Origin: Planctomycetota bacterium
Lineage (GTDB): Bacteria; Planctomycetota; UBA8108; SXIK01
Direction of reading: 5' to 3'
DNA: 64,000 bases
Assembly (NCBI GenBank): GCA_965223845.1
Contig: CBDCXR010000004.1
Coordinates: 2,432,001-2,496,000 of the forward strand
Shown here: positions 6,748 through 61,349 of the stretch, piece by piece
Layout of the letters: each line of letters begins with the position of its first letter
How positions within the stretch are numbered: the first letter of the stretch is position 1
Translations under genes and position numbers: made by a program
The notes under the pieces: model-generated
The model's input: only the letters and a program-made list of their open reading frames with translations
What the model was told of the DNA's origin: nothing
The model's database searches: none

Positions 6748-6796
6748 CGAGGTCTTCCGCTTGCTCTAGCCCCCATTCTCTCGAGGAGTCCACTTC

Positions 6797-8200: not shown

Positions 8201-8229
8201 TTGACCGTACGGTCAAATAACCGTATCCT
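8201..8229 (+). promoter_or_regulatory. Sigma70-type promoter overlapped by a palindromic TetR operator
   Basis: TTGACC-N17-TATCCT (8201-8206 / 8224-8229). A perfect 16-bp palindrome TTGACCGTACGGTCAA (8201-8216) covers the -35 box upstream of the TetR gene. Confidence 0.75.
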
Positions 8230-8293
8230 TCCATAGTCAGCCGCTGCCCGGGCCTCCGGACCCAGCGGCGAAGCCGACCCAAGGAGCCTCACC

Positions 8294-8881: not shown

Positions 8882-8916
8882 GGCAAGAACGGACGGATTT
8901 TTTATTTGGCACAAAA

Positions 8917-8932
8917 ATGACCGATCGGTCAT
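8917..8932. promoter_or_regulatory. Second TetR operator, upstream of thioredoxin
   Basis: Perfect palindrome ATGACCGATCGGTCAT sharing TGACCG-NN-CGGTCA with 8201-8216, in an AT-rich intergenic context. Confidence 0.75.
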
Positions 8933-8982
8933 CTATTTTACCCCACGAACCTCTCGGTTCGGCACTCCCGAAAGGACCTGAC

Positions 8983-9006
8983 ATGAAGCTCGCGAATTGT
9001 TGCTGA
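8983..9006 (+). other. Putative upstream mini-ORF MKLANCC, in frame with thioredoxin
   Basis: RBS-like GAAAGGA ~6 nt before ATG 8983; TGA at 9004-9006; 72 nt (in frame) to the thioredoxin ATG at 9055. Confidence 0.35.
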
Positions 9007-9054
9007 GACAGCTCTCCGGAAGAACAACTCCCCCGAATCGAAAGGAATCATTCG

Positions 9055-9405
9055 ATGAACTCGAACACCCGAAAGTTCACCCAGCGGAATTTCCAGTCCG
9101 AAGTCCTCGACCGAGGCGGCGTCGTTCTCGTCGACGCCTACGCCGACTGGTGCGGTCCCTGCCGCGCGCTCGCGCCGGTCATCGATGAGCTCGCAGACGA
9201 GTTCGCGGGCCGTGCCGAGGTCGGAAAGCTCGACGTAGACGAAGCACCGGAAACGGCGGCGACCTACGGGATCGCGTCGATCCCGACGGTGCTCGTATTC
9301 TCCGGCGGCGAGCTCGTGACACAGCTCACCGGACTCCGGCCGAAGTCGGAGTACGCCGCGGCGGTCGAAAGCGCCGAGGCGGCGCTCGCCCGGCGTGCTT
9401 CGTGA
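9055..9405 (+). CDS. trxA: Thioredoxin
   Basis: 'VLVDAYADWCGPCR', 'KLDVDE', 'YGIASIPT'; RBS GAAAGGA. Confidence 0.93.
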   Translation: MNSNTRKFTQRNFQSEVLDRGGVVLVDAYADWCGPCRALAPVIDELADEFAGRAEVGKLDVDEAPETAATYGIASIPTVLVFSGGELVTQLTGLRPKSEYAAAVESAEAALARRAS

Positions 9406-14861: not shown

Positions 14862-15043
14862 CTAGCCCGCATTTCTCACCAGATTCGGTGAGCGAAGCGG
14901 CGAGACGGCGTAAGACGGGAAGGTGGGGACGCACCGACCGGAGGTGTGCTCCTAGCACAGTGAGGATCGAGGTGTTGACACATCCGATGCGCAGTTCTCG
15001 TCTTACGGCGCGGCAGTAGAACCTGGTGAGAAATGCGGGCTAG
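14862..15043. repeat. Nested inverted-repeat (MITE/REPIN-like) element, copy 2
   Basis: Perfect 21-bp terminal IR CTAGCCCGCATTTCTCACCAG (14862-14882) / CTGGTGAGAAATGCGGGCTAG (15023-15043). Inner IR CGTAAGACG (14909-14917) / CGTCTTACG (14999-15007). The right CTAG contains the stop codon of the ECF gene. Confidence 0.85.
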
Positions 15044-18000
15044 CGCCCGTCCCAGACGACGTCCGACGTCTGACCGGCGGACACCTCGACGTCCTCTTCG
15101 AGGATGGTCTCGGGCTCCCCCACCTCCTCGAGCGACATGAGCCCCGCGTTGGGCCCGAGCGCCATCCGTTTCCCCGGCCGCATCACCTGACGATTCACTC
15201 GAACGCGGTAGGTCCCCGGCTCGAGACTCTCGAACTCGAACCGATCGCTATTGACGAACGAGATCATTCGCGTGTTCGGATCCGGCTGACCATCGCGGAG
15301 CCGCACGGCCTCAACCCGGAAGTTCAGCGTGTCTTTCTTCTCGAGCTTCACGCTCGCGCGCGAGAGATTCGTGTTGACGCGTCCCTCGATGCGGCCCACC
15401 TCGCGCATGCGAAGCTCGATGTGAGCGGAGCGGTCGACGACGATCGGCGCGGGCTTTTCAACCAGCGCCCAGAGCGCGTCCCTCGCCCTCACTTTGTGCT
15501 CACCCGGCGTGAGTCCTTCGAGCCGAAACTCGCCGGTTTCGCTGCTCGTCGCGGTCGCGGAGTGGTAGAACTCGAACGACCCCGGCTCGGGCGCGTCTGT
15601 GGTGAGTGCCGCCCGAACGTGGACACCGGGGATCGGTTTCCCCGCTTCGGTGACAACTCTTCCGGTGATCGTCGCGCCCGGATCGAGCGCGAGGTCCAGC
15701 TCCTTGGCCTCGCCGGCGTCGAGCGTGAGCTCCCGTCGGTAAGGACGGAATCCGTCCGCGAGGACCTGGATTTCGTAGCGCCGCGCCGTGAGACCGTCGT
15801 AGCTGTACCGTCCGGCGGAATCGGCGAACCGGAGTGAGCCGACCGAGCCCGCACGGTAGTTGGTCATGCCCGACTCGCGTTGGATGCGCTTTCGCCTTTC
15901 GACGTCGACGAGCGTGATGCCGAACTCTCGGACGGGCTCGCCCGTACGCAGGTTCGTCGCGCGTCCCCAGAGAACGGCGAAACGCTCGAGCACGATGTCG
16001 TCCAAGGGCTCGCCCGCGGTCACGGCGTCGATGCTCCTAGCTTCGTAGCCGCGCCGCCGAGCGACGATGAGATACTCACCGTCTCCGAGGTCGCGGAGCT
16101 CGAACCGACCGTCCTCCCCCGTATGCGTCCACGACTCCCCCTTCGCCGTGAGCAGAGACATGCGGTGCCCGAACTCGTCGTCCGAATACCGACGTCCAGA
16201 CGCCGAATCGACGGAGGAAGCCCGGGCCGCTACCTGCACTCCCGCGAGCGCGCGCCCTTCTTGGTCGACGACTCGCCCTTCGAGCGTTTTCCCGGCCTCG
16301 AGCACGAAGTCTCGGTTGGGCTCGACGGCGACCTCGATGGTTTCGGAGATGCGAGCGAAGCCCGGCGCGGATACCGTGATCGGCACGACCGCCCGCGGGA
16401 GCCGACGGAACCGGTAGCGCCCCGCCGCGCCCGAAAACGTCGCGCGAACGCTCGCGCGCTCGAGACCCGCGCGCTCCGCCTCGCCGTATTCGCCGTCGAG
16501 CGCAATCCGCGCTCCGGCGATGGGCTCACCTTCGGCGTCGAGCACTTTCCCGGAGAGCTCGAGTCCACGATCGAGCTCGACGACGAGAGGCGAGCCTTCA
16601 CTCTGGTGGTCGGTCCAGCGAATCGGACCGGTTCGAACGGGCGCGAACGACTCGTGCGTCACGACCACGTGGACTTCGCCGAATGAACGCCCCTCTCGTG
16701 AAGCAACCGAGTGTCGGCTGAGCCCCTCCTCGTCCGTCGACAAGCGCCGCGAGAGGATCACTTCGTCGTACCAGTCGCCGATGCCCTCGACTTCGAGCCT
16801 CACGCGAGCGCGCGGCACGGGCTCGCCATCGGTCGTCCTCGCGAGCACGAAGAGGGTCGACGGACGAGGAAAGCGAAACTCGACCTCGGAGCGCTTCCCG
16901 CCGTCCGGAGCCAGCGTCACGAGCTCCGAGTTGTGTCCGATCTCCGGATGCTCGGCGTAGATTCGCAGTCGACCACCGAGGACGCGTTCGATGGGAATGC
17001 CGGCGAGCTCGAACAAGCCGTTCTCATCCGTCGTCGTCTCTCGCGGGACGTCCTGTCGAACCTTGATCACCGCACCCGCGATGGGCTCTCCGTCGGGTTC
17101 GAACACCACGCGACCAGCAACCGAGACTCCTTCGCGGAGACGCACGTCGACCGCCGATGAACCGGCGGCGACCCCTGGGAGCGTCGCATCCACGTAACGT
17201 TCGTGACGGATCTCGAGTGTCCACTCACCCTCGCTCACCGGCTCGAGAATGAACGTACCGTCGTCTCCAGTGCGCGTCTCGACCAGCGGATCCGCAGTGT
17301 CCCTCGATCTGAATCCACCGTTCACCTCGAGTCGGTTCCAGTCGATCGCCACCTCGGCGTCCGCGATCGGCGCGCCGTCGGCATCCACGACTCGGCCTGA
17401 GATCTCCAGAGGAACGGCGAGGACGATGTCGCCGAGTTCGGTGATCTCGCCGACTTCGACCTCGCGCGTGAAGAAAGGGAACGCGTCGGCACGGACAACG
17501 AGGTCGAACGCGCCCGTGCCCGCTCCGGTGAGCTCGAACGCGCCGGTCGCGTCGGTGCGCGTCTCGCCGCCCGCTTGATCGTTCGCGTCCGCGACGACGA
17601 TCTCGCTCGCGAAAAGGCGATGGACCTCACCGCGCGCGAGTCGAGCGAGTCGCACTGCCGCGTTCTCCACGGCTTCGCCCCGGGCGTCGACGACGCGGCC
17701 GCGGACGACTCCCGCGGGTTCCATTTCGATCCGTACGTCGTCGGTCCCGCTCTTCACGTCGCGGGTAAACGCCGAACGATAGCCGCGGAGCTCCGCTTCG
17801 AGGTCGTAGACGACGGGTTCGAGGGAATCGAAGTGAAACTTTCCGTTCTCGTCCGACTGGAGTTCGCGCGGCTCGAAGAGGATCCTCCCTCGGCGCCACT
17901 GGGAAACGAGCTCCCGAACGCGCTCGACGGAGTCCGTGTGCCACCCCCGAGCCGCGTAGGCGGTCAAACGTACGCCGGGAATGGGAGTACCGGTTCGATC

Positions 18001-19326
18001 CACCACACGACCGGCGATCTCCGCGGCCGGGGCGAGCTCGACGGTTGCCTCGGCGACGGCCGGCGGACGGATATCGACGAAGACGTCCGACCGGGGCAGG
18101 AAGCCCCCCTTCGATACGACGAGGCGATAGTCTCCGGCGGCCACGTCGGCGAACGCGAAGCTTCCGTCGACGTCCGATTCGACGCGGGGTGCGTCCGACA
18201 CGATCTGGACGAACTCTTCGCGCAGCTCGCGCGACCACGCGCCGAGTTCGCGCATCGTCTCGTTCGCCAACTCGGAATCGGGTCGCGCGAGATCGCTCTC
18301 AGCGATGAGACGAACGACGGCCTCCGGAATCCCGCGGCCGAGTCCGTCCGTCACTCTGCCCGTGAGATTCGGCGGCGGAACCAGGGTCGCGACCTCCGCG
18401 GCCGAGTCCGCCGCGGGCTCAACGGGCGTCGTCCTCGCGGCGCCACGCCCGAGATTCGAGACCTCGCCGGTCTCCTCGTCGTCGATTCGCTCGAGCGAAG
18501 TCGTCTCCGGTCCAGCTTCGTCGTCGATCCCGATAGCCCACCAACCGCCGAGGAGTATGGCGATCGAAGCCACCGCCGCGGCGACAACCTTCTTGCTACT
18601 CACGATGGATCCTCCGGTGATGATCGGTGTCCAAGCACTCGAGGTCACTCCCGCTCCCGCACCGGCACCTGCGGCCGTGAGGCCTTCGAGTGCGGTGCCG
18701 AGTGCGGTGATGCGGTCGAGTCCACTGACGACGGCCTCGGGAAGCGGCGGAATGACTCCGCCGTGGAGCCCACCCGCCGCTCCGAGGAGCGTCGCCGAGC
18801 CGATTCCGAGGCGCCGTTCGAGGAACGCGCGCGCCTTCCCGAGCCGGAAGCGGACCGCACGCTCGGTGATTCCGAGCGCGCTGGCCACTTCGCCGGGGGA
18901 GAGATCTGCGAGGTAGCGAAGCTCGATGGCCGCCCTTTGATCGCGCGGCAACTCGTCGAGCGCTCGGTCGAGGGCTTCGACGTCGTCCGCCGACTCGCCC
19001 GAACCTCGCAGTCTCTCGTGTAAACGCCGAACGTGCTCCTCCTCGCGGCGCCGACGACGTTCGCGCGAACGCCGCAAGCGCCCGACTCGGCCGAACACGC
19101 ACCACACCAAGTACCCACGAACCGACTCGACGTTCTCACCCCGCGGCGGTGAGACGAGGAGCTTCACGAAGACGTCCTGGCAGACGTCGGCGGCGTCCTC
19201 CGAGCTCGACGTCATCCGGTAGGCGACGCGCCAAACGAACTCGCGGTACTCGGCGACGACGCGCGCGAGGTTACGGCGGTTCGGCCGGCGGAGATACCGG
19301 GTGAAGGAGTCGGGCTTCGGGGACAT
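15040..19326 (-). CDS. ECF sigma factor fused via a TM helix to many carboxypeptidase-regulatory-like repeats
   Basis: Sigma2 'DAADVCQDVF', sigma4 'LPRDQRAAIELRY..EVASALGITERAVRFRL', a TM helix, then repeated 'GRVVDxxGxPIxGA..TDxxGxFxL' units. Confidence 0.88.
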   Translation of the reverse strand: MSPKPDSFTRYLRRPNRRNLARVVAEYREFVWRVAYRMTSSSEDAADVCQDVFVKLLVSPPRGENVESVRGYLVWCVFGRVGRLRRSRERRRRREEEHVRRLHERLRGSGESADDVEALDRALDELPRDQRAAIELRYLADLSPGEVASALGITERAVRFRLGKARAFLERRLGIGSATLLGAAGGLHGGVIPPLPEAVVSGLDRITALGTALEGLTAAGAGAGAGVTSSAWTPIITGGSIVSSKKVVAAAVASIAILLGGWWAIGIDDEAGPETTSLERIDDEETGEVSNLGRGAARTTPVEPAADSAAEVATLVPPPNLTGRVTDGLGRGIPEAVVRLIAESDLARPDSELANETMRELGAWSRELREEFVQIVSDAPRVESDVDGSFAFADVAAGDYRLVVSKGGFLPRSDVFVDIRPPAVAEATVELAPAAEIAGRVVDRTGTPIPGVRLTAYAARGWHTDSVERVRELVSQWRRGRILFEPRELQSDENGKFHFDSLEPVVYDLEAELRGYRSAFTRDVKSGTDDVRIEMEPAGVVRGRVVDARGEAVENAAVRLARLARGEVHRLFASEIVVADANDQAGGETRTDATGAFELTGAGTGAFDLVVRADAFPFFTREVEVGEITELGDIVLAVPLEISGRVVDADGAPIADAEVAIDWNRLEVNGGFRSRDTADPLVETRTGDDGTFILEPVSEGEWTLEIRHERYVDATLPGVAAGSSAVDVRLREGVSVAGRVVFEPDGEPIAGAVIKVRQDVPRETTTDENGLFELAGIPIERVLGGRLRIYAEHPEIGHNSELVTLAPDGGKRSEVEFRFPRPSTLFVLARTTDGEPVPRARVRLEVEGIGDWYDEVILSRRLSTDEEGLSRHSVASREGRSFGEVHVVVTHESFAPVRTGPIRWTDHQSEGSPLVVELDRGLELSGKVLDAEGEPIAGARIALDGEYGEAERAGLERASVRATFSGAAGRYRFRRLPRAVVPITVSAPGFARISETIEVAVEPNRDFVLEAGKTLEGRVVDQEGRALAGVQVAARASSVDSASGRRYSDDEFGHRMSLLTAKGESWTHTGEDGRFELRDLGDGEYLIVARRRGYEARSIDAVTAGEPLDDIVLERFAVLWGRATNLRTGEPVREFGITLVDVERRKRIQRESGMTNYRAGSVGSLRFADSAGRYSYDGLTARRYEIQVLADGFRPYRRELTLDAGEAKELDLALDPGATITGRVVTEAGKPIPGVHVRAALTTDAPEPGSFEFYHSATATSSETGEFRLEGLTPGEHKVRARDALWALVEKPAPIVVDRSAHIELRMREVGRIEGRVNTNLSRASVKLEKKDTLNFRVEAVRLRDGQPDPNTRMISFVNSDRFEFESLEPGTYRVRVNRQVMRPGKRMALGPNAGLMSLEEVGEPETILEEDVEVSAGQTSDVVWDGR

Positions 19327-19556: not shown

Positions 19557-22500
19557 CTAGTCCGACGAATTCTCGTTCGCGGTGTTTGCCACCGGGATCG
19601 CTCCGGGCGGGAGGAGATGTTTCTGCAGCTCGCACAGCCAATCGACCACGCCGCGCGAGGCCGATGCGTCCGCGTTGAACGTTCCCGCAACGCCCTCGTC
19701 GAACAGCAGGTCACCGATATGCTCACCGAGCGCGCGGTAAGCTTCGAACTGGTCTTCATCGAAGAGCTGGTCCGCAGTGCTCTGGTGCGGAAACTCCGGA
19801 TGGCGCTCGTGGTAGTCGAGAATCTGGACGTCCTCGTCGCCCGTGAGCGAGGCCTTCACGTAGAGGATGTAGCCGCGCGGGAGCTTCTTCCCATCGAGGT
19901 CCGTACCGTAGTCGACGACACCGAGAGCGAAATGAGCCCCGCTGTACTCGTCTCGCGAGCGGCGAATCGACGATAGATCGATCTCGGTCGAAACTCCGAG
20001 ATCGATCTTCGCGTGGCGAAGCGCTTTGACGATAGCCCGGCACGAGCGGTCCGCGTCGGCCTCGCCGTCGACGACGATCATGAGCTTGCAGCGGCGGCGA
20101 AGGAGCTCGTAGAGACCGAGATTCTCGATGTGCCCCCCGTCCGAGACGTAGACGAACGGCAGGTTCTCGTGCACCTGACCGCGCGCCTCGCAGAGCAGGT
20201 ACCGGGCGTCGGGTGAACTCGGACCGGTCACCTTCTCGTGCCCTGGATTCCGCAGCCAGTAACCGAGGCGAAGGTTCGCGAGGGTCGTGAGCGGAGTCAA
20301 AGCGGCGATCGTGAATCGCCCCATGAGCGATGACACCGCCGCACCCGAGGTCGCCATCGCCGTCGCGAGATCGAGCGCCGGATTGACGTTCGTCCACTGC
20401 GCGGTCGGCCTATACCCGACGATCGGGCTCCCCGAGTGATGCCGGCTGTAGACGAAAAAGTCCGCGCGCCGTCCGCGCAGATCGGGGTTCTTGCTCGCCG
20501 GAAGATTTACCGCCGAGTTGATCAAGTGGTACGGCGCCGCTCCTGACGCGAGGTCGGCGAGCTCGCGTCGACGAGCCTGTCCGTTCGCATCGACAATAAA
20601 CGTCGCGGCGAGACGCGCTCGGTAAAGGAAATGAAGTGCGGTCTCGTTGACGTCTACGGAGAAGAAGAGCGCGAGCGTCGAGAGGCCCGCAACGAGCGCG
20701 AGACCCGTCGGCGTCAACGGGACGACGGAACCGAGGTGGATGGCGATCGCTAGCGCCGCCGCCGGCGCCGCGACCACGAGCACGAACGCTCCCCAGACCT
20801 CGAGAGATTTCGACGCGCGCGGGACGGCCGAGATCGCTACGAGAATCGCCGCGAGAAGGGCCAGCCCTCCAGCGACCAACGCGGGGTGGAATCGAAGTGC
20901 CGCGTCGTCCGCACTCAGGAACTTCTCGAATAGAGCAAGCGCGAGATAGAAGAAGCCCGCGACGCCGATCGTGAGTCCTGCGCCTCGAACGAAGACCGAC
21001 ACCGTGCGCGTCCAGCGAGAAGGGTGTCGCCAGTTCATAACGAGAACCGCCGCGACCGCCGCCGCGATCGCAACGAGGCCCAAGAGAATCCACTGCCACG
21101 TGAAGTCTCCGGTCGGTCCGCCCGTTGCGGCGTCCGGTGCGCCCACGCCCTCCGCCGACGACGAAGAGTCCGTCGCGAGAAGATTCGCGAGAACGAGGAA
21201 CGACAATGCGACAGCGACCGGCAAGACCGTCCCCAGGAGAGCGATCACGACTCCCAGCGCTCCGCGACGACGGCGGAAGAGGAAGAGGACGCCCGCGACG
21301 ACGAGACTGGCGCCGTAGATTCCCCCGACGACGAGAAGGAGTCGCCCGTCGGTTTGCCAGTGGCTGAATGCAGCGCAGGCTAGCTCCGCAGCGCCGAGGA
21401 CGAGCGATGCGACCAGCGTCAGCGCCGCCGCTTTCCCGACCGACGACGTAAATCCCGCGCGCGGCGACGCACACCGAAGAAAGAGGTACAGAAACGGAAG
21501 CGAGACGACAGTCACTCCGATCCAGCCCCAGACCTGCCCCGGAAGAATCGACGAGTTCGCCTCGAGGATCGCTCCCACGTGTTCGGGAGCGATCGCTGCG
21601 ACGAGCGAGGCGATCGCGATCAAGCCCGCGAACAGAACGGCGGTGTTGATGACGATCCCGTAGGCGATCGCCGCCGCCGCGACGGCCTTGCCGACGAGAT
21701 CGTCGACGCGAAGAAATCGCGCACCGTTTCGAACCGCGCGTCCGGCAACGGATTCGTCGCGGAGCTGCGTATCGACCGGTAGCGAAGGCGGCGGCGACGC
21801 CGTCGAGGCCGATTCGGAATCTCCCGCGCCCGACTCGTCACTCGGCGCCGTCTCCGGCGGGGATTCGCCTTCGGAAGACGACGCGGCGAGACACGAGCTG
21901 ATGAAGGCGCCCGTGTACCCTCCACCCGACACGGTCGAGAGGTAGTCGATGTCGCGAAACACCTTGTGCTTAACGAGCGACTGAACGAAGCCGAGCGAAA
22001 ACGTCGCCGAGCGGATGCCTCCGCCGGAGAGACTGAGCCCCGAGCGACCTTTCCGTTCGCCGCACTTCGAACCGACGAGTTTCCTTCGGCGCTCGATGTT
22101 CGCCGATTCGTCGGTGTAGATCTTCTCCCAGCCTTCGATGAGCGTCCGGCAGCTCGCAGCCGAGAGACTCCAGTCGTCGTCGACCGGATCCTTCCTCGGC
22201 TCGAAGCCCGTCTCCGTGCCGCGGATGTGGTTGTCTTCGGCGAGCTCCGCGAGGACGGTCATAAACTCGCGCACGCTCTCTTGAACGCCGACGAGCTCCG
22301 AACGGAACTTCCGGCAATCATCGTCCGATTTGAACGCGCCGGCGACGAGCTTACCGTGCCAGTTCGCGGTAAACGGACGCAGTCGACGATTGAGAAGAAT
22401 GGTGCTCAGCGTCGCGAAGTGCCACGCCTTGCGGCCCTTGTCCCTCGTCAGCTTCCGAACGAGATCGAAAAGCGAGAAAACGCTCTTCAGTGCTGTCGCT

Positions 22501-22724
22501 TCATCGCCGGAACGCGGGTGGAGCGGCTGAGTGGTGATCCGCGTGCGGAGCTCCGTGTAGAGATCCCACGCTGCCTCGCCGTCCTCCTTGCTCGGCTGCC
22601 ACGGCGCCTCCGCGAGATGGGCCAGCGGCGAGTCGCCCGTCGTCGCGTCTTCGCCGAGCACGCGCTCGAGCCTCGATTTCCACGTGCCCGCTGACGTCGT
22701 CTCTTCGTTCCCCGCTTCGACCAT
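19557..22724 (-). CDS. Membrane-embedded patatin/cPLA2-type phospholipase with an N-terminal helical domain of unknown function
   Basis: 'GLSLSGGGIRSA', nucleophile 'DYLSTVSGGGY', 'YVSDGGHIENLG', 'FPHQSTADQLFDEDQFEAYRALG'; a long multi-TM insert lies between the catalytic halves. ATG 22724 has a GGAGGGG RBS. Confidence 0.88.
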   Translation of the reverse strand: MVEAGNEETTSAGTWKSRLERVLGEDATTGDSPLAHLAEAPWQPSKEDGEAAWDLYTELRTRITTQPLHPRSGDEATALKSVFSLFDLVRKLTRDKGRKAWHFATLSTILLNRRLRPFTANWHGKLVAGAFKSDDDCRKFRSELVGVQESVREFMTVLAELAEDNHIRGTETGFEPRKDPVDDDWSLSAASCRTLIEGWEKIYTDESANIERRRKLVGSKCGERKGRSGLSLSGGGIRSATFSLGFVQSLVKHKVFRDIDYLSTVSGGGYTGAFISSCLAASSSEGESPPETAPSDESGAGDSESASTASPPPSLPVDTQLRDESVAGRAVRNGARFLRVDDLVGKAVAAAAIAYGIVINTAVLFAGLIAIASLVAAIAPEHVGAILEANSSILPGQVWGWIGVTVVSLPFLYLFLRCASPRAGFTSSVGKAAALTLVASLVLGAAELACAAFSHWQTDGRLLLVVGGIYGASLVVAGVLFLFRRRRGALGVVIALLGTVLPVAVALSFLVLANLLATDSSSSAEGVGAPDAATGGPTGDFTWQWILLGLVAIAAAVAAVLVMNWRHPSRWTRTVSVFVRGAGLTIGVAGFFYLALALFEKFLSADDAALRFHPALVAGGLALLAAILVAISAVPRASKSLEVWGAFVLVVAAPAAALAIAIHLGSVVPLTPTGLALVAGLSTLALFFSVDVNETALHFLYRARLAATFIVDANGQARRRELADLASGAAPYHLINSAVNLPASKNPDLRGRRADFFVYSRHHSGSPIVGYRPTAQWTNVNPALDLATAMATSGAAVSSLMGRFTIAALTPLTTLANLRLGYWLRNPGHEKVTGPSSPDARYLLCEARGQVHENLPFVYVSDGGHIENLGLYELLRRRCKLMIVVDGEADADRSCRAIVKALRHAKIDLGVSTEIDLSSIRRSRDEYSGAHFALGVVDYGTDLDGKKLPRGYILYVKASLTGDEDVQILDYHERHPEFPHQSTADQLFDEDQFEAYRALGEHIGDLLFDEGVAGTFNADASASRGVVDWLCELQKHLLPPGAIPVANTANENSSD

Positions 22725-22768
22725 CGGCCCCTCCGTCGGCTCGCTCGCTCCCGCTTTGACGTGACGGC

Positions 22769-22873
22769 ATCTTCTTCTGTCCACGAAACACTGTCAATCG
22801 AGGCGAGACGTTCGTACTCGTGCGGGCTCCGTGATCGACCGGCGTTGACATCGAATCACGAGAGGACGACACT
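22769..22873. promoter_or_regulatory. Back-to-back divergent sigma70-like promoters
   Basis: Minus strand: TTGACA (22797-22792)-N17-GAAGAT. Plus strand: TTGACA (22845-22850)-N17-GACACT. Confidence 0.5.
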
Positions 22874-22979
22874 GAGACCCAACGGTAACGATCGTGGAAC
22901 GGGCGGCTGTGGTCTCGCGCGACGCCCGCCGTCCAGTCGTGCGCCTTACGATCGAGCGTCTCGTCTGGGAGTCGACGTA

Positions 22980-23507
22980 ATGCCTCTCAAGCTCAGCTCC
23001 TTCAGCATCAATCTTCCGTTCGGAATCGGAGGGATGGACGTCATCGTCTCCGAAGCCCAAGCGAACGCGGCATGGGCGCTCTACGTCGAGCTCGCGACGC
23101 GCATCGCAACCGAAAAGCTCGAGCCTGGGCAGGGTCTCGTCCGTGAAGCCTTGACCTCGATCTACAAGCTCTTCGACATCATCCGAGGCGTGCTCAAAGA
23201 CCAGGGCCCGGGTGTCGCGGCCGGACCGAACTCGGTCGGGCCGATCGCGATCGAAGTGCTCAATCGCGGGCTCCGTCCGTTTCTGGTCCGCTGGCACACG
23301 AGCTTCAGCGAATTCGAGCGAGCGGAGACGAAGCGGCAGCGCGTCGAATTCGGCGCGGACGCTCCGGTGGTAATCGAGGACCGCGATTGGCCGGAGCGCG
23401 ACGCGTTTTACGAGGCGCTCGAGGAGAATCGTCTGGCTCTCAAGCAGTACGTCGACGCGCTCGGAGCGATCGCCGGCGTCGCGCAATCGGAGAGTGACGG
23501 TCGCTGA
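22980..23507 (+). CDS. Hypothetical helical protein homologous to the N-terminal domain of the neighbouring lipase
   Basis: 'AAWALYVELATRIATEKL...ALTSIYKLF...LNRGLRPFLVRWH' aligns with lipase 'AAWDLYTELRTRITTQPL...ALKSVFSLF...LNRRLRPFTANWH'. Confidence 0.85.
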   Translation: MPLKLSSFSINLPFGIGGMDVIVSEAQANAAWALYVELATRIATEKLEPGQGLVREALTSIYKLFDIIRGVLKDQGPGVAAGPNSVGPIAIEVLNRGLRPFLVRWHTSFSEFERAETKRQRVEFGADAPVVIEDRDWPERDAFYEALEENRLALKQYVDALGAIAGVAQSESDGR

Positions 23508-23537
23508 CGTCGGCCGCCTAGGGCGTGAAGGGACGCG

Positions 23538-25622
23538 GTGAGCGGAACCTCGATGACTCGTCTTCCGTTTCGGATCCAGGTCCTCCACCACCCGCAGTCC
23601 GATGCGGGCGCGCGATTCGCGCGAGCGCTATTCGATCGGTTCTCCCTCTCGCGCGGACCGCGGATTCCGCTCGTCTACGGGAGCGAGCAACCGAACGGCG
23701 GGCCGCCCGATCGACTCGAGCTCGACGCGGCGGAGAAATCGGTCGTCGTCGTCCTCGCCGACAAACGCATGGCGCGCCGTGTCGCGGGTGGCAGCGGCCC
23801 AGCGTGGGCGAAGTTTCTGATCGAGTCGCTCGCGCTCGTCCCGCCGGGCTCTCCCGATCACTGTGTTCTTCCCGTGGCGCTCGACGTCGGAGCGTTCGAC
23901 CTCGGATCCGAGCTCGAAGAGACGAGCTTCGTCCGCTTGGACGCGATCAAGGACGAAGAGAAGGAAGCGGAGCTCGAGTATCGAGTCGCGGTCAACAGCC
24001 TCGAAATCTTGGGGTTTCGAGTCCCAGACAAGTCGACGGTGACGAGCGATCGACCGCGTCCGCCGGTCAACTTCTTCCTCAGCCACGCGAAGCAGGACCT
24101 TCCCGCCCCGGGGGAAGACGGTCCCGTCGGCGCAATCCTCAAGCACTTCGCCGACGGTCGTGTCGATAGTTGGTACGACGCGAAAGACATTCGCGCGGGG
24201 GAAAACTTCGCCGCCCGCATCGAGAGTGGAGTCGATCGCGCCTCGGCGCTGATCGCGGTGATCACCGATTCCTTCGCCTCGCGCGAGTGGTGCCGGAAGG
24301 AGATCCTCTTCGCGAAGACCCGCTGCGGACCGGTGGTCGTCGTCGACGCCGTTGAGGCGGGCGAATCGCGCGCGTTTCCCTACATCGGAAACGCACCGAC
24401 CATCCGTTGGCGACCGGGCCCCTACGCAGCGCGAGACGTCGTCCTCGCCGCCGTGCGGGAGGCGCTCAAGTTCGAACATCACCTGGCGACGCTGCGCGCG
24501 AGAGAGAACGAGTCGACGAAGGTGCTTCCGAGCGCACCGGAGCTCATTTCCATCGCGGGGCTCGACGCAGCGGTTCGTCGCATCGTCTATCCCGACCCTC
24601 CCCTCGGCCGCGAGGAGCTCGAGCTCCTCGGGAATGCACGCGGCGACCTCGAGTTCACGACCCCGCTCTCGGAGCTCGCGTCGCACCGTCCGCACTCCGG
24701 GACGCGTCCGCATCGTCTCGGACTCTCGATCTCGGGGAGTCAAGACATCCGGGCGTACGGCGTCGGCCCCGAGCACATGGCCGCGTTCGCCGACGACCTC
24801 GCCCTCTTCTTTCTCCTCGCCGGCTCGCAGCTCGTCTACGGCGGCAATCTGTCCCACGGTGGCGGCGACGGGGACGAGGAGAATTTCGTGACGAGGCTCT
24901 TCGGCGCGGTGCGCAGTTACTCCCCGCTCGCGAAGGATCTCGGTCTCGAAGATCGGGCGGGCGTGTATCCACTCGTCAACTACGCGCCGTGGCCGCTTCA
25001 CCACGCCTTCTCCGACGAGCAGTACGATCAGTTCGGGAAGCTCGCGGGTCTCGAAGAGCTCGAGCGACCCCACTCGCTCGGCGTCGACGAGGGGGAGCTC
25101 GGCGTGAAGGACGGGGAGTTCTTCATCGCCGACACTCCGGCCCGGCGATTCGCCTGGGCGCGGTCGCTCACGGAGCTCCGCACGAGGCTCGTCGCAGAGA
25201 CCGACTCCCGCGTCGTCCTCGGCGGGAAGACGAAGGGGTTCTTCGGCGTGTACCCCGGAGTTCTCGAGGAGGCGGTTCTCACCCTCGAGTCGCAGGATCC
25301 GAAGCCACTCTTCGTCGTCGGAGCCTTCGGCGGCGCGGGACGGATCGTCGTCGACATGCTTCGCGGCGTCGACCGCGAGGAACTCACGACCGAGTGGGCG
25401 GAGCAGAATATCGACGACTACGACGCGGTCGTCGACCTCTACGCCCGCGCCGGAATCCCGTTTCGAACGCCGGAGTCCATCGCGGATTCGCTCCGGGCGA
25501 AGCGCGCTCTCGGTTTCGCCGGTGCGCTGCGGAACGGACTGAGCGACGAGGAGAACGAAGAGCTCTTCGACGGGACGGATCCACGGCGACTCGTGGAGCT
25601 CGTGCTCAGGGCTCGCGAATAA
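23538..25622 (+). CDS. TIR-like + TIR + SLOG (cluster-2-like) protein
   Basis: TIR: 'FFLSHAKQD..WYDAKDIRAG..SREWCRKE' (catalytic Glu present). Linker 'VYPDPPLGREE'. SLOG: 'LSISGS..LVYGG..RVVLGGK..GVLEEA..VVGAFGGAG'. Confidence 0.85.
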   Translation: MSGTSMTRLPFRIQVLHHPQSDAGARFARALFDRFSLSRGPRIPLVYGSEQPNGGPPDRLELDAAEKSVVVVLADKRMARRVAGGSGPAWAKFLIESLALVPPGSPDHCVLPVALDVGAFDLGSELEETSFVRLDAIKDEEKEAELEYRVAVNSLEILGFRVPDKSTVTSDRPRPPVNFFLSHAKQDLPAPGEDGPVGAILKHFADGRVDSWYDAKDIRAGENFAARIESGVDRASALIAVITDSFASREWCRKEILFAKTRCGPVVVVDAVEAGESRAFPYIGNAPTIRWRPGPYAARDVVLAAVREALKFEHHLATLRARENESTKVLPSAPELISIAGLDAAVRRIVYPDPPLGREELELLGNARGDLEFTTPLSELASHRPHSGTRPHRLGLSISGSQDIRAYGVGPEHMAAFADDLALFFLLAGSQLVYGGNLSHGGGDGDEENFVTRLFGAVRSYSPLAKDLGLEDRAGVYPLVNYAPWPLHHAFSDEQYDQFGKLAGLEELERPHSLGVDEGELGVKDGEFFIADTPARRFAWARSLTELRTRLVAETDSRVVLGGKTKGFFGVYPGVLEEAVLTLESQDPKPLFVVGAFGGAGRIVVDMLRGVDREELTTEWAEQNIDDYDAVVDLYARAGIPFRTPESIADSLRAKRALGFAGALRNGLSDEENEELFDGTDPRRLVELVLRARE

Positions 25623-26593: not shown

Positions 26594-29500
26594 GTGAGTC
26601 CCGATCCCCTCGAGCGCCTCCGCGGTCAAATCAACGAGGAACTGGCTCGGCTCTGCGACGAACACCCGGAACGGAGCGGGGAGTTCACGACATTCGGGCA
26701 CGGCGTCGTCGCAATCCTCGACCGGCTCGCAGATTCTCTCGCCGGTGATGTAGACCGCACGGTATCGCTCGCGCCGGCAGACGCGGCCGCCCTTGATACG
26801 ATTTCAACTCCGGCGGGCGCCGGCTCTTACGAGGAACGGAGCGAGCTCGGACGTGGGGGGATGGGCGTGGTCCTCGAAGTCTGGGATCAGCGCATCCAGC
26901 GACCGCTCGCCATGAAGGTTCTCCTCAACGAGGGCGGCGCGGTGTCCGGATCGAACACGACGAGCGGCGTCGTCGCGCGGTTTCTCCGAGAGGCGCGGAT
27001 CACGGGCCAGCTCAGTCACCCGGGGATCGTGCCCGTTCACGAGATCGGCAAGGATCCCGCCGGTCGAGTGTACTTCACCATGCAGGTGGTTGCAGGTAAG
27101 AGCCTCAAGGAGGAACTGACCGACGCGCGTAGCGAATCCGAGACGTCCGCTCCGACCCGATTTCTCGGCGTCCTCGTTAGAGTGTGCGAGACCTTGTCGT
27201 TCGCCCACTCCCGCGGGGTCATCCATCGCGATCTCAAGCCGGCGAATATCATGGTGGGTCGCTTTGGCGAGGTGTACCTCATGGATTGGGGGCTCGCGAA
27301 GGTCATCCGCGAAACGGATGAGCTCTTCGGCGTCACCGAACTAGACCCAGGTTCTGGCGCGGCGTCCGAATCATCGGCGGTGGAAATGACCATCGACGGC
27401 GCGGTCATCGGAACTCCGATGTACATGCCCCCCGAGCAAGCGATGGGTCACATCGACGTCTTGGACGAGCGTTCGGACGTCTATTCTCTCGGCGCCATTC
27501 TCTACGAGTTGATCGCCGAGCGCGCGCCGTATCGCGACCAGGAGGGTTTGAGCAGCCCGATGGAAATCGTGGATGCGGTGCGAACTGGCCCGCCGACCGC
27601 CCTCCATCGTGTTCGGGCGAACACACCTCCTGAACTCCTGGCCATTTGCGAGAAGGCGATGGCCCGAGGCCCGGATGACCGCTATCAGTCCGCAGAGGAG
27701 ATGCGTGAGGATCTCCGTGCGTTTCTCGACAACCGAGTCGTTGAGGCGTACCGGACGGGAGCGCTCGTCGAGCTTCGGAAGTGGATCGCTCGCAATCGCA
27801 GCGAAGCCGCCGCGATCGGAGCCGCAGCGGCCATCGCAATCGCGGCGTTTGTGTCCGTAGCGTGGGTGCAGTCTCGCCGGGCCACGGATCTCGAGGAGTA
27901 TTCTCGTGGCGTCGAGGAAGCCCGCGGCCGCACGGAGCAGGCCCTCCGCGAGGAGGAAGCCGCCCATCGGCGTTCTCAGGGATTGTATCTCGCCGCTCAG
28001 TCGACTCGCGTCGAATCGGAGAATCCCGGTCTCGCGCTTCGACTCGCGCTGGAGTCGCACCGGGAACTCCCCAGCGTGTTCGCGAACAGCTCCATTCTCC
28101 GGTCACTGCGGGTATCGCATGAGATTTCGGACTCAGCATTTGGTCTAGATCCTAAGGGCTCGCCGCCTCAACTGAGTCCCCGAGGCGATCGATTCGCGTA
28201 CGCGCGAACGGATGGGGCGGTCGTCGTCGCGGATTTCGAGTCCGGCGCTACAGTGTCTCTGCTGGTCGACCAAGGACGACGACTGGATCAGCTCACGTTT
28301 CACCCTGACGGACAACGGATCGCGACGTCGTCCTCCGATGGGACTGCGTGCGTTTGGGACGCAGAATCTGGACGTCTCCTCACGCGCTTCACGGGTCACT
28401 TAGACGATGGCGACGAACCCTTTGTCGCGTCCATTGCGTTTAGCCCGGATGGCTCGCAGGCAGTTTCCGCGGGTCGCGGCGTCGCACGAATTTGGCGACC
28501 GGATACCGGCGAGGAAATACGAAAACTCCGCGGTCATGACGCGGCCGAATTGATACACGGCGCGGTCTACAGTCCAGATGGGTCGTTGATCGTGACGCAC
28601 TCGCACGATCGAACGGCCCGAATCTACAATACCGCGGTGGTCGATCTGGGCGCGGTCATCGCGAGGCACGAGGGGTGGATCAGCACTGCTCTGTTCGATC
28701 CGACCGGACGCTTCGTCTTAACGCTAGACGACGAACGGAATCGAAAGCCGACGCCCTCAATGCGCCGAATTCTTCGTGTCTGGAACGTATTGGAAGGGCG
28801 TGAGGAAGAACCCCGCCGACACGAGGAAAAGATCGTCGGCGCGTGCTTCACTCCCGACGGACGCAAGATCATCAGCGCGACGTCGGATGGAATCTTTATC
28901 TGGGACACCGATTCCGGCGAGTGCACGACTGTCAATCCGCTCGGAGGAGGAATTCCGTCCTGTATCGCGATTCGAGGCGACGGCGCGCAGCTCCTCGAGG
29001 GTCGATCCGATGGCACGGTTCGGATCTGGGACTTAGAGTCGATTGCCGTCGCCCGCGTGCTGCGCGCGCACGATTCGCGCATAACGTCGGCGTTGTTCAC
29101 TCGTGACGGACGCGGAGTCTTGACGAGCTCGTTCGATGGAACCGTGCGCGCTTGGCGCACAAACCGTCATCACGAGCTTAGCGCCACGCGCGTCGGAGGC
29201 GAGCCGAGGTTTGCCGAGGTCAGCGCGGACGGGAGGTTGATGGTCGCGGCCGTGCTCAACGCCCGATCTGCTACCGTCTCGTCGGTTGGCGACCCCCGCC
29301 CCTCGATAGTGCTTGATCACGCCGCGAACATCGCGGGGGTCGAGCTGCGTGCTGAACAGAACACTGTCGTTACCTGGGACAAGGAGAAGACAGCACGGGT
29401 ATGGGATATAGAGAGCGGGCGTCTTCGTTCGACGATCGGCCCGGTATCAACTCGGAGCGTGAGTCGAGACGCTCGTTTTTTGATGGGAATCGGTTCCGAT

Positions 29501-61345: not shown

Positions 61346-61349
61346 TTCT

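What the first reader, a model, noticed from the sequence alone, without database searches (positions are those of the whole stretch)
19557..25622. Divergent TIR-SLOG / membrane phospholipase locus linked by a shared, unnamed helical domain: candidate immune signalling system
Seen: a ~120-aa domain at the lipase N-terminus (~22235-22600; AAWDLYTELRTRITTQPL..ALKSVFSLF..LNRRLRPFTANWH) recurs as the whole divergently transcribed neighbour (AAWALYVELATRIATEKL..ALTSIYKLF..LNRGLRPFLVRWH). A TIR-like/TIR/SLOG gene follows 30 bp later, and two TTGACA-N17 promoters sit back to back between the arms. Known: TIR domains make NAD-derived signals and SLOG domains bind them (Thoeris ThsB/ThsA); patatin lipases are suicide effectors (CBASS CapV); homotypic effector-associated domains couple components in ternary conflict systems of multicellular bacteria. 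Inference: TIR-SLOG senses or signals, and the stand-alone copy acts as an adaptor or decoy inhibitor that docks homotypically onto the multi-TM lipase to control membrane destruction.
Basis: partly seen in the sequence, partly recalled or inferred. Interest (0 to 1): 0.85.

Follow-up and report, generated by a model that had tools for sequence, protein, structure and literature searches.

The report
TIR signalling locus with shared receiver domain
A small helical protein and the front end of a neighbouring membrane lipase share one unnamed domain that, across many bacteria, sits next to or is fused to TIR immune-signalling enzymes, so it most likely passes a TIR-made signal on to cell-killing effectors.

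Summary
The 175-aa protein (22980-23507,+) and the N-terminus of the divergent 1055-aa lipase (19557-22724,-) share a domain (40% identity over 83 aa, E 2e-15). A TIR-SLOG gene starts 30 bp after the small gene.

The link is to TIR enzymes, not between the two copies.
- 65 of 80 loci with the stand-alone form have a TIR domain within 3.5 kb. None of the 80 has the lipase.
- All 119 listed lipase relatives carry the domain. 24 of 41 such loci with enough flank have a TIR nearby.
- Other forms carry membrane helices, metallophosphatase, HTH or TIR itself.

The domain has no Pfam match. [quoted passage not shown] The score is 30.9 against at most 20.6 in 61 controls, with HHalign probability 41%.

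Best reading (0.55): a Thoeris-like system in which TIR-SLOG makes a signal and two effectors share a ThsG-like receiver domain. No defence function, ligand or binding has been shown.

The parts
19557..22724 (-). Membrane patatin-like phospholipase with an N-terminal receiver-type domain (1055 aa from ATG 22724; a GTG at 22784 is an alternative start)
   Evidence: ORF, translation. The family has 3256 hits at E<=1e-3 among 8000 scored candidates, and most listed ones carry PF01734. The protein itself has no Pfam hit.
22194..22664 (-). Lipase N-terminal copy of the shared four-helix domain (residues about 21-177); it lacks the LPFGxGG hairpin motif
   Evidence: HMM match at residues 21-177, E 3.7e-47; the lipase NTD was itself a row of the alignment behind that HMM. 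BLASTP against the small protein gives E 2e-15. Alignment. Invariant R62, S81, R90, N112, R116, W122 and H123 in 32 lipases.
21921..22028 (-). Patatin oxyanion motif SGGGIRS (residues 233-239) and nucleophile motif STVSGG (residues 263-268, Ser266)
   Evidence: Motif positions. Invariant in 32 aligned lipases.
20649..21686 (-). Polytopic membrane insert, about 11 hydrophobic segments (residues 347-692), between the Ser and Asp motifs of the patatin fold
   Evidence: Kyte-Doolittle scan. The family median is 6 segments (range 0-8) in 119 homologues.
20130..20144 (-). Patatin catalytic Asp motif SDGGH (residues 861-865, Asp862)
   Evidence: invariant S861 D862 G863 G864 H865.
22725..22979 (.). 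Divergent intergenic region, 255 bp, with two outward-facing TTGACA hexamers (22792-22797 on the - strand, 22845-22850 on the + strand)
   Evidence: Sequence. Hexamer list (15 in the window; shuffles give 11.6 +/- 2.9). Neither is called a promoter by the scan, and the -10 elements are weak.
22980..23507 (+). Stand-alone 175-aa member of the domain family (ThsG-like candidate receiver or effector)
   Evidence: Translation. 221 homologues at E<=1e-3, all unnamed and without Pfam domains. AlphaFold2 model with pLDDT 90.1. TIR adjacency in related loci.
22998..23045 (+). N-terminal beta-hairpin (residues 7-22) carrying the invariant L12-P13 and G17 of the NLPFGxGG motif
   Evidence: Strands E7-12 and E17-22 in the model. 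Invariant columns.
23052..23474 (+). Four-helix bundle (helices 25-41, 54-80, 86-124, 140-165) with invariant W32, R41, S60, R69, N95, R99 and W105
23538..25622 (+). TIR-SLOG protein (694 aa), the candidate signal generator; starts 30 nt after the small gene
   Evidence: Pfam. Full-length homologues (28-41% identity over about 700 aa) lie next to either the lipase or the stand-alone gene in other loci.
23538..24053 (+). N-terminal domain of TIR-SLOG (residues 1-172), possibly TIR-like, unproven
   Evidence: No Pfam hit. HHalign against TIR gives probability 0.3%. The named hits of the ESM Atlas feature search are all TIR families, at 0.88-0.92.
24072..24437 (+). TIR domain (about residues 179-300) with catalytic Glu255 (24300-24302)
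   Evidence: TIR_2 at 4.7e-10. The Glu column is 38 of 38. Position.
24711..25565 (+). SLOG cluster 2 domain (PF18163, residues 392-676) with the glycine-rich stretch LGGKTKGFFG at residue 561
   Evidence: (4e-58).

Best explanation
The locus is a Thoeris-like TIR signalling system with one signal generator and two effectors that carry the same receiver domain.

Shown:
- An unnamed domain of about 150 aa (an N-terminal beta-hairpin in stand-alone forms, then a four-helix bundle) defines a large family.
- Its members are either encoded next to catalytically intact TIR proteins or fused to effector-type modules. These modules are a membrane patatin lipase, 1-3 TM helices, metallophosphatase with or without SLOG, HTH, or TIR itself.
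- This window combines two widespread two-gene modules around a single TIR-SLOG gene: stand-alone protein + TIR-SLOG, and domain-lipase + TIR-SLOG.

Inferred:
- On infection or stress, TIR-SLOG (Glu255) converts NAD+ into an ADP-ribose-derived signal.
- The signal is bound by the conserved Arg/Trp/Asn/His positions of the helical domain, probably with oligomerisation.
- In the lipase this switches on Ser266/Asp862 phospholipid hydrolysis in the membrane.
- The stand-alone protein acts as a second, ThsG-like effector, or as a receiver subunit for another protein.
- The domain is probably a remote relative of DUF6650/ThsG, the effector of type VI Thoeris.
For: (1) TIR adjacency of the stand-alone form.
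- In 43 of 74 loci the immediately adjacent same-strand gene is a Pfam TIR protein. The TIR is fused to varied modules: SLOG cluster 2, FGE-sulfatase, WD40, TPR, NB-ARC, GUN4, VMAP-C, A_deaminase, HD-CE, EAD8 and DUF3110.
- With a TIR HMM, 65 of 80 loci have a TIR domain within 3.5 kb and 50 of 80 within 1 kb.
- TIR-bearing ORFs number 16.8 per 100 kb in the near flanks against 3.8 per 100 kb in the far flanks of the same loci.
- In the window's own phylum, 3 of 4 stand-alone genes have a TIR within the 1.5-kb flank.

(2) The lipase form.
- 119 of 119 listed homologues carry the domain.
- Of domain-bearing lipase loci with at least 1.5 kb of flank, 24 of 41 have a TIR within 3.5 kb and 10 of 41 a SLOG. 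With both flanks at least 3 kb, 11 of 16 have a TIR.
- Patatin-TM relatives without the domain: 1 of 7 and 0 of 16 (1.5-kb flanks) have a TIR.

(3) Architectures typical of a receiver domain.
- Of the 150 best of 1977 representative clusters, 70 are stand-alone, 50 are TM-anchored (19 of them with two or more copies) and 30 are other forms.
- Fusions include TIR+domain, TIR-AAA-domain, BTAD-STAND-domain (domain at the C-terminal end), domain-Metallophos with or without SLOG cluster 2, and HTH_3-domain.

(4) The invariant residues shared by the stand-alone, lipase and TM forms are mostly Arg, Trp, Asn and Ser.

(5) The TIR catalytic Glu is present in 38 of 38 associated TIR domains.

(6) The same TIR-SLOG family pairs with either partner. 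It shows 41% and 37% identity to lipase-linked proteins and 34% to proteins linked to the stand-alone gene.

(7) Likeness to ThsG/DUF6650.
- HHalign of a 278-segment profile against 5 PF20355 members gives score 30.9, E 2.9e-4, probability 41%, over 141 collinear columns.
- Controls: reversed alignment 16.0, 30 column shuffles at most 16.6, 30 block shuffles at most 20.6.
- DUF6650 is the only named family in the ESM Atlas list (0.83, 182 of 256 features).
- ThsG is reported next to TIR genes, with or without N-terminal TM helices (bioRxiv 10.64898/2025.12.03.692087, section 7 read). That preprint also reports Thoeris operons with two effectors that answer one signal (section 8).
Against: - No ligand, enzymatic product, binding or phenotype has been shown for any member.
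- The family does not match PF20355: 0 of 38 members at E<=10, and 0 matches in the window's own genome.
- The narrow profile against DUF6650 gave only E 0.01-0.05 and probability about 2%. Even the broad profile reaches only 41%.
- The five DUF6650 genes used for the comparison have no recognisable TIR neighbour. No TIR HMM hit was found in their loci, and 0 of 5 neighbours tested have a Pfam hit.
- 15 of 80 stand-alone loci and 17 of 41 lipase loci show no TIR within 3.5 kb. Seven of those 15 have under 3.5 kb of flank on at least one side.
- TIR+domain fusions are not what a generator/receiver split predicts, unless the TIR there is the NAD-depleting effector.
- SLOG is the receiver in type I Thoeris, so the helical domain need not be the receiver here.
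- The window's neighbourhood shows no known defence genes.
- How a soluble 175-aa helical protein would harm a cell is unknown.
Confidence: 0.55

Rival explanations
1. Direct protein partner of TIR. The helical domain binds the TIR protein itself. It would act upstream as an infection sensor or activator, or as an inhibitor or antitoxin that keeps the NADase silent. In the lipase it would tether or co-regulate the enzyme with the TIR assembly. No diffusible signal is needed.
For: - Adjacency is tight and often consistent with translational coupling. Gaps of about 0-40 nt between the small gene and the TIR gene are common.
- The domain is fused to TIR in single polypeptides (P0274, P0330, P0339, P0373).
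- In STAND fusions the domain occupies the C-terminal sensor position.
- The partner TIRs are very diverse while the small protein is well conserved: 42% mean column identity and 20 invariant columns.
Against: - Fusions to HTH, metallophosphatase, TM helices and patatin are more typical of a ligand-receiver domain than of a TIR-specific binder.
- The conserved residues are Arg, Trp, Asn and His rather than a hydrophobic interface.
- One well-conserved small protein would have to recognise TIR domains that have diverged widely.
- No test of small protein x TIR binding was run here.
Confidence: 0.2
2. First reader's model. The stand-alone copy is an adaptor or decoy that docks homotypically onto the lipase N-terminal domain (EAD or Death-like logic) to control membrane destruction, with TIR-SLOG as sensor or signaller.
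For: - Two copies of one domain are encoded divergently in one locus.
- Tandem copies of the domain within one polypeptide exist: 19 of the 150 best clusters have two or more copies. So domain-domain contacts are plausible.
- If the domain is ThsG-like it may oligomerise. A homo-hexamer model for ThsG is reported in 10.64898/2025.12.03.692087, section 7.
Against: - The lipase is found in 0 of 80 loci that encode the stand-alone protein.
- Only 2 of 80 lipase loci hold a second domain ORF.
- The two copies rank only 28th and 29th of 120 as each other's relatives, so there is no locus-specific co-evolution.
- No Pfam EAD or Death-like model matches.
- TIR-SLOG, the supposed core, carries no copy of the domain.
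Confidence: 0.12
3. Not an immune system. This would be a housekeeping or developmental NAD/ADP-ribose signalling circuit that remodels membrane lipids or controls transcription in response to stress. The TIR-SLOG would be a metabolic nucleotide-processing enzyme.
For: - The window's neighbours are ordinary genes (sulfatase, TetR, PfkB, SDR, ECF sigma, Ser/Thr kinase-WD40), with no recognised defence genes.
- HTH fusions of the domain exist.
- The family is richest in cyanobacteria, Chloroflexota, Planctomycetota and actinomycetes with complex life styles.
- GUN4, a tetrapyrrole-binding domain, is the commonest TIR fusion partner in the cyanobacterial loci: 10 of the 43 adjacent TIR proteins.
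Against: - The TIR partners are fused to WD40, TPR, NB-ARC, FGE-sulfatase, VMAP-C and EAD8 modules. The conflict-system literature treats these as immune sensor or adaptor modules (PMC7159879 and PMC8195603, passages read).
- Membrane patatin and TM-only partners are classic suicide effectors.
- Distribution is patchy: 18 of 401 genomes of the phylum match the lipase query at E<=1e-20, including the window's own genome and hits to the stand-alone form or to lipases lacking the domain, and 0 of 2 genomes of the same family match.
Confidence: 0.08

Closest known systems
Type VI Thoeris (ThsB TIR + ThsG, DUF6650/PF20355), Yirmiya et al., bioRxiv 10.64898/2025.12.03.692087 (outline and sections 5, 7, 8, 9 read; further passages by term search)
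   Same: - A two-gene TIR + small (about 160-180 aa) helical protein of no known function.
- Variants with N-terminal TM helices.
- Spread over Pseudomonadota, Actinomycetota and Cyanobacteriota.
- An end-to-end collinear profile alignment that scores above all 61 controls.
- DUF6650 is the only named family in the language-model look-alike list.
   Different: - No PF20355 match for any of 38 members. HHalign probability is only 41%.
- Here the domain is also fused to patatin, metallophosphatase, HTH and TIR.
- The TIR partner here is TIR-SLOG, or TIR fused to large sensor modules.
- The signal (2'cADPR for type VI) and hexamer formation are untested for this family.
Type I Thoeris (ThsB TIR + ThsA SIR2-SLOG)
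   Same: A TIR enzyme plus a SLOG domain in one locus, with the logic of a NAD-derived signal and a downstream effector.
   Different: The SLOG (cluster 2, PF18163) is fused to the TIR itself, not to an effector. There is no SIR2. The ThsB models score only weakly (E 0.0019-0.0067). The candidate receiver is a different, helical domain.
Type III Thoeris (several TIR proteins + a SLOG effector), known here only from one sentence in 10.64898/2025.12.03.692087 and a weak NCBIfam ThcB4 hit (E 0.015, 14.1 bits against a cut-off of 220)
   Same: More than one TIR-type domain may be combined with SLOG, if the N-terminal domain of the 694-aa protein is TIR-like (lead only).
   Different: All domains are in one polypeptide. 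No model reaches its cut-off. The primary paper was not read.
CBASS CapV and other signal-activated patatin phospholipases
   Same: A patatin Ser-Asp lipase as a probable membrane-destroying effector switched on by a nucleotide signal.
   Different: - No CD-NTase family was found among the products scanned: the three locus proteins and 21 other ORFs of the window.
- The lipase is an integral membrane protein, with about 11 hydrophobic segments inserted in the patatin fold.
- It carries a dedicated N-terminal domain.
- Its conserved neighbour is a TIR.
Effector-associated domains (EADs) and bacterial Death-like domains of ternary conflict systems (Kaur et al., PMC7159879 and PMC8195603; passages read)
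   Same: A small helical module that recurs on different components of conflict systems in multicellular bacteria. One adjacent TIR protein carries EAD8 (L079).
   Different: The fold is a four-helix bundle with a hairpin, not a six-helix Death fold. There are no Pfam EAD matches. The core protein lacks the domain. In STAND fusions the domain sits at the C-terminal end. The pairs are not co-evolved.
TIR-associated TPR receiver of type VIII Thoeris (ThsI) and BcTir/Tpr assemblies (Burroughs & Aravind 2020, not held: recalled and as cited in 10.1101/2023.05.26.542521, section 9 read)
   Same: A helical module linked to TIR. Its gene neighbours or fusion partners include patatin, calcineurin-like phosphoesterase and SLOG-family domains, which is the same partner set seen here.
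   Different: No TPR model matches this domain. The size and fold differ: a single four-helix bundle rather than TPR repeats.

Membership tests
Thoeris-type TIR signalling system (generic) | A TIR-domain protein with the catalytic glutamate | tested here: met
   TIR_2 at 4.7e-10. E255 lies in WCRKE, and the Glu column is 38 of 38.
Thoeris-type TIR signalling system (generic) | An effector gene conserved next to the TIR gene across genomes | tested here: met
   Stand-alone form: 65 of 80 loci have a TIR within 3.5 kb. Lipase form: 24 of 41. Near versus far TIR density is 16.8 versus 3.8 per 100 kb.
Thoeris-type TIR signalling system (generic) | The effector is activated by a TIR-made ADPR-derived molecule | not testable with these tools
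   Needs LC-MS and binding or activity assays.
Thoeris-type TIR signalling system (generic) | Protects against phage; enriched in defence islands | tested here: inconclusive
   No phenotype data. The window's neighbours show no known defence families (21 ORFs scanned). No genome-wide enrichment test was done.
ThsG / DUF6650 (PF20355), type VI Thoeris effector | Matches PF20355 above the 27-bit cut-off | tested here: not met
   0 families for the small protein at E<=0.1. 0 of 38 members at E<=10. 0 matches in the window's own genome.
ThsG / DUF6650 (PF20355), type VI Thoeris effector | Remote homology at profile level | tested here: inconclusive
   Broad profile: score 30.9, E 2.9e-4, probability 41%, 141 columns, above 61 of 61 controls. 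Narrow profiles: probability about 2%. The AlphaFold2 model of a DUF6650 protein was too poor to compare (pLDDT 52.9).
ThsG / DUF6650 (PF20355), type VI Thoeris effector | Soluble and N-terminally TM-anchored variants | tested here: met
   Of the 150 best clusters, 70 are stand-alone and 50 TM-anchored.
ThsG / DUF6650 (PF20355), type VI Thoeris effector | Responds to 2'cADPR; homo-hexamer with basic inter-protomer pockets | not tested
Patatin-like phospholipase (PF01734) | Gly-rich oxyanion motif, GxSxG-type nucleophile Ser and DG(G/A) catalytic Asp | tested here: met
   SGGGIRS at 233, STVSGG at 263 and SDGGH at 861, invariant in 32 members. Most listed homologues carry PF01734. The window protein itself is below Pfam's reporting level.
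CBASS | A CD-NTase (cGAS/DncV-like) cyclase next to the effector | tested here: not met
   No CBASS model hits the three proteins. No cyclase family appears among the locus products or the 21 other window ORFs scanned.
Type I Thoeris ThsA | SIR2 NADase fused to SLOG | tested here: not met
   The SLOG cluster 2 domain is fused to TIR, and there is no SIR2.
EAD / bacterial Death-like adaptor domains | The same adaptor domain on the core NTPase or sensor and on the effector; matches to EAD or bDLD models | tested here: not met
   No EAD or Death models match. TIR-SLOG lacks the domain. The lipase is absent from 80 of 80 stand-alone loci. The two copies are not mutual best relatives.

The most novel reading that the evidence does not exclude
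The unnamed domain and DUF6650/ThsG form one superfamily of receivers for TIR-made nucleotides. This would be the most modular Thoeris receiver seen so far. It is plugged into membrane patatin lipases, TM-only pore formers (single and tandem), metallophosphatases, TIR NADases and even HTH transcription factors. That would define a large unrecognised branch of TIR signalling: at least 1977 clusters at 50% identity, dominant in cyanobacteria, Chloroflexota, Planctomycetota and actinomycetes. The HTH fusions would mean that TIR signals can also control transcription. Loci like this one would fire two different effectors from one signal.
Probability: 0.35. Interest if true: 0.8.

Novelty: new variant of a known kind. 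Interest (0 to 1): 0.62.

Why it matters
TIR signalling (Thoeris) is now known to use many effector types, but how effectors recognise the signals is known for only a few receiver domains (SLOG, Macro and a few others).

This locus points to a receiver-type domain family with these properties:
- It is large and is missing from Pfam, PADLOC and NCBIfam.
- It is linked to TIR enzymes across at least six phyla.
- It is re-used on very different outputs, including a very large family of integral-membrane patatin lipases (3256 hits at E<=1e-3) whose N-terminal domain was unexplained.

If the receiver reading is right, three things follow. It gives a direct handle for finding new TIR-derived signals in phyla that laboratory screens rarely reach. 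It explains how the membrane lipases are switched on. It ties the enigmatic ThsG effector to a broader superfamily.

If the reading is wrong and the domain binds TIR proteins directly, it would still be a new conserved TIR regulator.

Tried and rejected
- Complex prediction, small protein x lipase N-terminal domain. Verdict 'no answer' (0.04 and 0.01 against a mark of 0.32), and the controls were not run. It says nothing for or against binding.
- AlphaFold2 of a DUF6650 protein from a two-sequence alignment. pLDDT 52.9, too poor for any fold comparison.
- HHalign of the TIR-SLOG N-terminal 172 aa against a TIR profile. Probability 0.3%.
- Promoter scan. No site was called in the divergent intergenic region.
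- RNA evidence. No RNA holder is listed; the four runs that hold the stretch come from one sample and one study.
- The search of earlier findings.
- DUF6650 searches. 0 of 351 cyanobacterial genomes and 0 of 10 genomes that hold the small protein. 2 of 401 Pseudomonadota genomes. 9 plasmid records.
- Profile A1 against the two DUF6650-bearing genomes. Nothing at E<=10.
- A first DUF6650 alignment contained one wrong-frame sequence (L189). It was dropped.
- Six of the 80 loci (L010, L011, L012, L017, L025, L059) lost the small gene in my greedy ORF picking. They are missing from the Pfam neighbour scan, which covered 79 neighbours of 74 loci. All 80 loci were used.
- Literature. Burroughs & Aravind 2020 (by DOI, by PMC id) is not held. 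Burroughs et al. 2015 did not appear in the searches. Figure 1C and Tables S1-S3 of 10.64898/2025.12.03.692087 list 29 predicted Thoeris effector types, including 'phospholipases' and proteins of unknown function. They could not be seen, so this family, or the TIR + lipase pairing, may already be listed there as an unverified prediction.
- Searches for prior description (terms as entered): SLOG + TIR + patatin; SLOG + TIR domain + nucleotide-centric; TIR + GUN4 + cyanobacteria + defense; type III/IV Thoeris; nucleotide-centric systems + SLOG + patatin; Thoeris + patatin + TIR; diverse eukaryotic reformulations + TIR + patatin; SMODS/SAVED/SLOG/LSDAT. None of the listings, or of the passages read from them, describes this domain.

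Full report
**What is in the sequence.**
Between 19.5 and 25.7 kb there are three genes.
- A lipase gene on the minus strand, 19557-22724 (ATG start, 1055 aa).
- A divergent small gene, 22980-23507 (175 aa), after a 255-bp intergenic region.
- A 694-aa gene, 23538-25622, 30 nt downstream of the small gene.

The 694-aa protein has a TIR domain (TIR_2, 4.7e-10, residues 179-261) and a SLOG cluster 2 domain (PF18163, 4e-58, residues 392-676). Its WCRKE glutamate is E255.

The small protein and the lipase get no hit in Pfam, PADLOC or NCBIfam at E<=0.1. The lipase is nevertheless a patatin-type enzyme.
- Most of its 119 listed homologues carry PF01734.
- SGGGIRS, STVSGG (Ser266) and SDGGH (Asp862) are invariant in 32 aligned members.
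- About 11 hydrophobic segments (residues 347-692) are inserted between the Ser and Asp motifs.

**The shared domain is real.**
- BLASTP of the two frames gives 40% identity over 83 residues, E 2e-15.
- The 7.93-Mb genome holds only these two copies.
- An AlphaFold2 model of the small protein from 36 homologues is confident (pLDDT 90.1). It shows an N-terminal beta-hairpin (residues 7-22) followed by four helices.
- Fold searches return only generic helical bundles.
- The lipase copy aligns through all four helices but lacks the hairpin motif NLPFGxGG.
- W32, R41, S60, R69, N95, R99 and W105 are invariant across stand-alone, lipase and membrane-anchored members.

The two TTGACA hexamers exist and face outward. 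Their -10 partners are weak (3 of 6 each, read), and the promoter scan called neither.

**What the stand-alone protein goes with.**
It has 221 homologues of similar length at E<=1e-3, all unnamed. A scan of one genome per species found 362 encoding stretches. I kept the best 80, from cyanobacteria, Chloroflexota, Planctomycetota, actinomycetes, Pseudomonadota and others.
- The patatin part of the lipase was found in 0 of these 80 loci.
- In 43 of the 74 loci where my ORF picking kept the small gene, the immediately adjacent same-strand gene is a Pfam TIR protein. This covers 45 of the 79 neighbours scanned.
- The TIR is fused to very different modules: SLOG cluster 2, FGE-sulfatase, WD40, TPR, NB-ARC, GUN4, VMAP-C, adenosine deaminase, HD-CE, EAD8 and DUF3110.
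- With a TIR HMM built from these domains, 65 of all 80 loci have a TIR domain within 3.5 kb and 50 of 80 within 1 kb.
- TIR-bearing ORFs are 4.4 times denser in the near flanks than in the far flanks of the same loci: 16.8 against 3.8 per 100 kb. The HMM was trained on neighbours from these loci, so this is an internal comparison and not an independent one.
- All 38 aligned TIR domains keep the catalytic Glu.

**What the lipase goes with.**
The lipase family is very large: 3256 hits at E<=1e-3 among the 8000 candidates scored.
- All 119 listed homologues (about 860 aa) carry the same N-terminal domain, with E from 1e-40 to 1e-17. The lipase's own N-terminus was one row of the HMM's alignment.
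- I examined 80 metagenome loci of the family. 41 have a domain-bearing lipase and at least 1.5 kb of flank on one side. Of these, 24 have a TIR within 3.5 kb and 10 a SLOG cluster 2 domain. With both flanks at least 3 kb, 11 of 16 have a TIR.
- Relatives without the domain are rarely near a TIR: 1 of 7, and 0 of 16 in the window's own phylum. The flanks there are only 1.5 kb, and two pairs of those loci come from the same genomes. These control sets are small.
- Only 2 of the 80 lipase loci hold a second domain-bearing ORF.
- The window's TIR-SLOG is a full-length homologue both of lipase-linked proteins (41% and 37% identity) and of proteins linked to the stand-alone gene (34%).

So this window joins two common two-gene modules around one TIR-SLOG gene. 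The two domain copies are not each other's closest relatives; they rank 28 and 29 of 120.

**Other architectures.**
A profile search of 1.84 billion representative proteins found 1977 clusters at E<=1e-3 and 1337 at E<=1e-10. Of the best 150:
- 70 are stand-alone.
- 50 have 1-3 N-terminal hydrophobic helices. Of these, 31 have one copy of the domain and 19 have two or more.
- 30 are other forms.

The fusions scanned include:
- domain+TIR and TIR+domain;
- TIR-AAA-domain and BTAD-STAND-domain, with the domain at the C-terminal end;
- domain-metallophosphatase, with or without SLOG cluster 2;
- HTH_3-domain.

This is the pattern of a receiver or sensor domain that is re-used on many outputs.

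**Relation to what is known.**
A December 2025 preprint (10.64898/2025.12.03.692087; outline and sections 5, 7, 8, 9 read, plus passages found by term search) extends Thoeris to types V-XI and predicts 29 effector types.
- Its type VI effector, ThsG, is a DUF6650 protein of unknown function that lies next to TIR genes.
- ThsG sometimes has N-terminal TM helices.
- It is modelled as a hexamer with basic pockets and is activated by 2'cADPR.
- The preprint also reports operons with two effectors that answer one signal.

My family does not match PF20355. Narrow profile comparisons were not significant. A broader test gave more.
- A broad profile of 278 domain segments against five confirmed PF20355 proteins (four of them re-checked against PF20355) aligns end to end. 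It covers 141 columns with score 30.9, E 2.9e-4 and probability 41%.
- The reversed alignment scores 16.0, and 60 shuffles score at most 20.6.
- DUF6650 is also the only named family in the language-model look-alike list (0.83, below the tool's 0.9 line).

I read this as probable but unproven remote homology. The DUF6650 genes I used have no recognisable TIR neighbours. Their link to TIR therefore rests on the preprint.

**Mechanism.**
Shown: the domain, its conservation, its TIR linkage and its fusions.

Inferred:
- TIR-SLOG makes a NAD-derived signal.
- The helical domain binds the signal through its conserved basic and aromatic residues.
- The lipase is thereby switched on in the membrane.
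- The stand-alone protein acts as a second effector or as a receiver subunit.

What the SLOG domain and the possibly TIR-like N-terminal domain of the 694-aa protein do is open.

The main rival is that the domain binds TIR proteins directly, as an activator or an inhibitor. The one complex prediction gave no verdict and is listed under Tried and rejected.

The window's neighbourhood is not a recognisable defence island.

**Verdict.**
It is an unnamed, widespread, TIR-linked receiver-type domain, here on two effectors beside one TIR-SLOG. It fits the known Thoeris logic and is probably a distant ThsG relative. I therefore rate it a new variant of a known kind. Part of it may already be listed among the preprint's unverified predictions, whose figure and tables I could not see.

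Noticed in passing
L052, L061, L069, L070, L073, L080 (Calothrix-type loci), about 4900-9150: A recurring arrangement: the small gene followed by a 144-171-aa nucleoside 2-deoxyribosyltransferase-like protein (PF15891). In L052, L061, L070 and L080 a WD40-Ras-TIR protein (about 1000 aa) lies directly upstream; L069 has a 390-aa TIR protein there, and in L073 the nearest TIR domain is 1.3 kb upstream. The stand-alone domain may work with a separately encoded nucleotide-processing effector.
   Followed up: partly
P0369, P0372, P0334 (representative proteins): HTH_3 (XRE-type) DNA-binding domain fused to the helical domain. This hints at transcription control by whatever the domain senses. Their genomic context is unknown.
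   Followed up: no
P0362, P0363, P0300: Domain + calcineurin-like metallophosphatase, with or without SLOG cluster 2, plus several hydrophobic segments. This is the same SLOG family as in the window's TIR-SLOG, here in cis with the domain.
   Followed up: no
L083 3098-5498; L063 4419-8480; L058 6814-8477: Two copies of the stand-alone gene in one locus in some cyanobacteria.
   Followed up: no
L022 7267-7725 and L035 1714-2169: A 152-153-aa MerB-like (alkylmercury lyase, PF03243) gene lies about 260 bp upstream of the small gene in two Anaerolineales loci.
   Followed up: no
window 15040-19326 (-): A 1428-aa protein with ECF sigma-70 regions 2 and 4 at the N-terminus, followed by about 1200 aa of CarboxypepD_reg-like repeats. 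This is an unusual sigma-factor fusion directly beside the lipase gene.
   Followed up: no
window 30806-34512 (-): An 829-aa protein with a weak HerA-like ATPase match (1.6e-06) sits next to a 429-aa protein with no Pfam family. It is possibly another conflict-type gene pair.
   Followed up: no
window 26594-30772 (+) and 47000-64000: A Ser/Thr kinase-WD40 protein (1392 aa) lies just downstream of the locus. G+C falls from about 0.65 to 0.56-0.62 at 28-30 kb and over most of 47-64 kb. The latter stretch holds a 1368-aa subtilase with dockerin and a pentapeptide-repeat protein. Foreign origin is possible.
   Followed up: no
window 1-5091 (-): An ORF that runs off the window's end (at least 1697 aa) combines FG-GAP repeats with a PPDK_N (pyruvate phosphate dikinase nucleotide-binding) domain.
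   Followed up: no
L105 6632-13985: A lipase relative whose match starts only at model position 235 (no detectable copy of the domain) still has a TIR-SLOG gene and a second TIR 2.5-3.3 kb downstream. It may carry a different N-terminal receiver.
   Followed up: no
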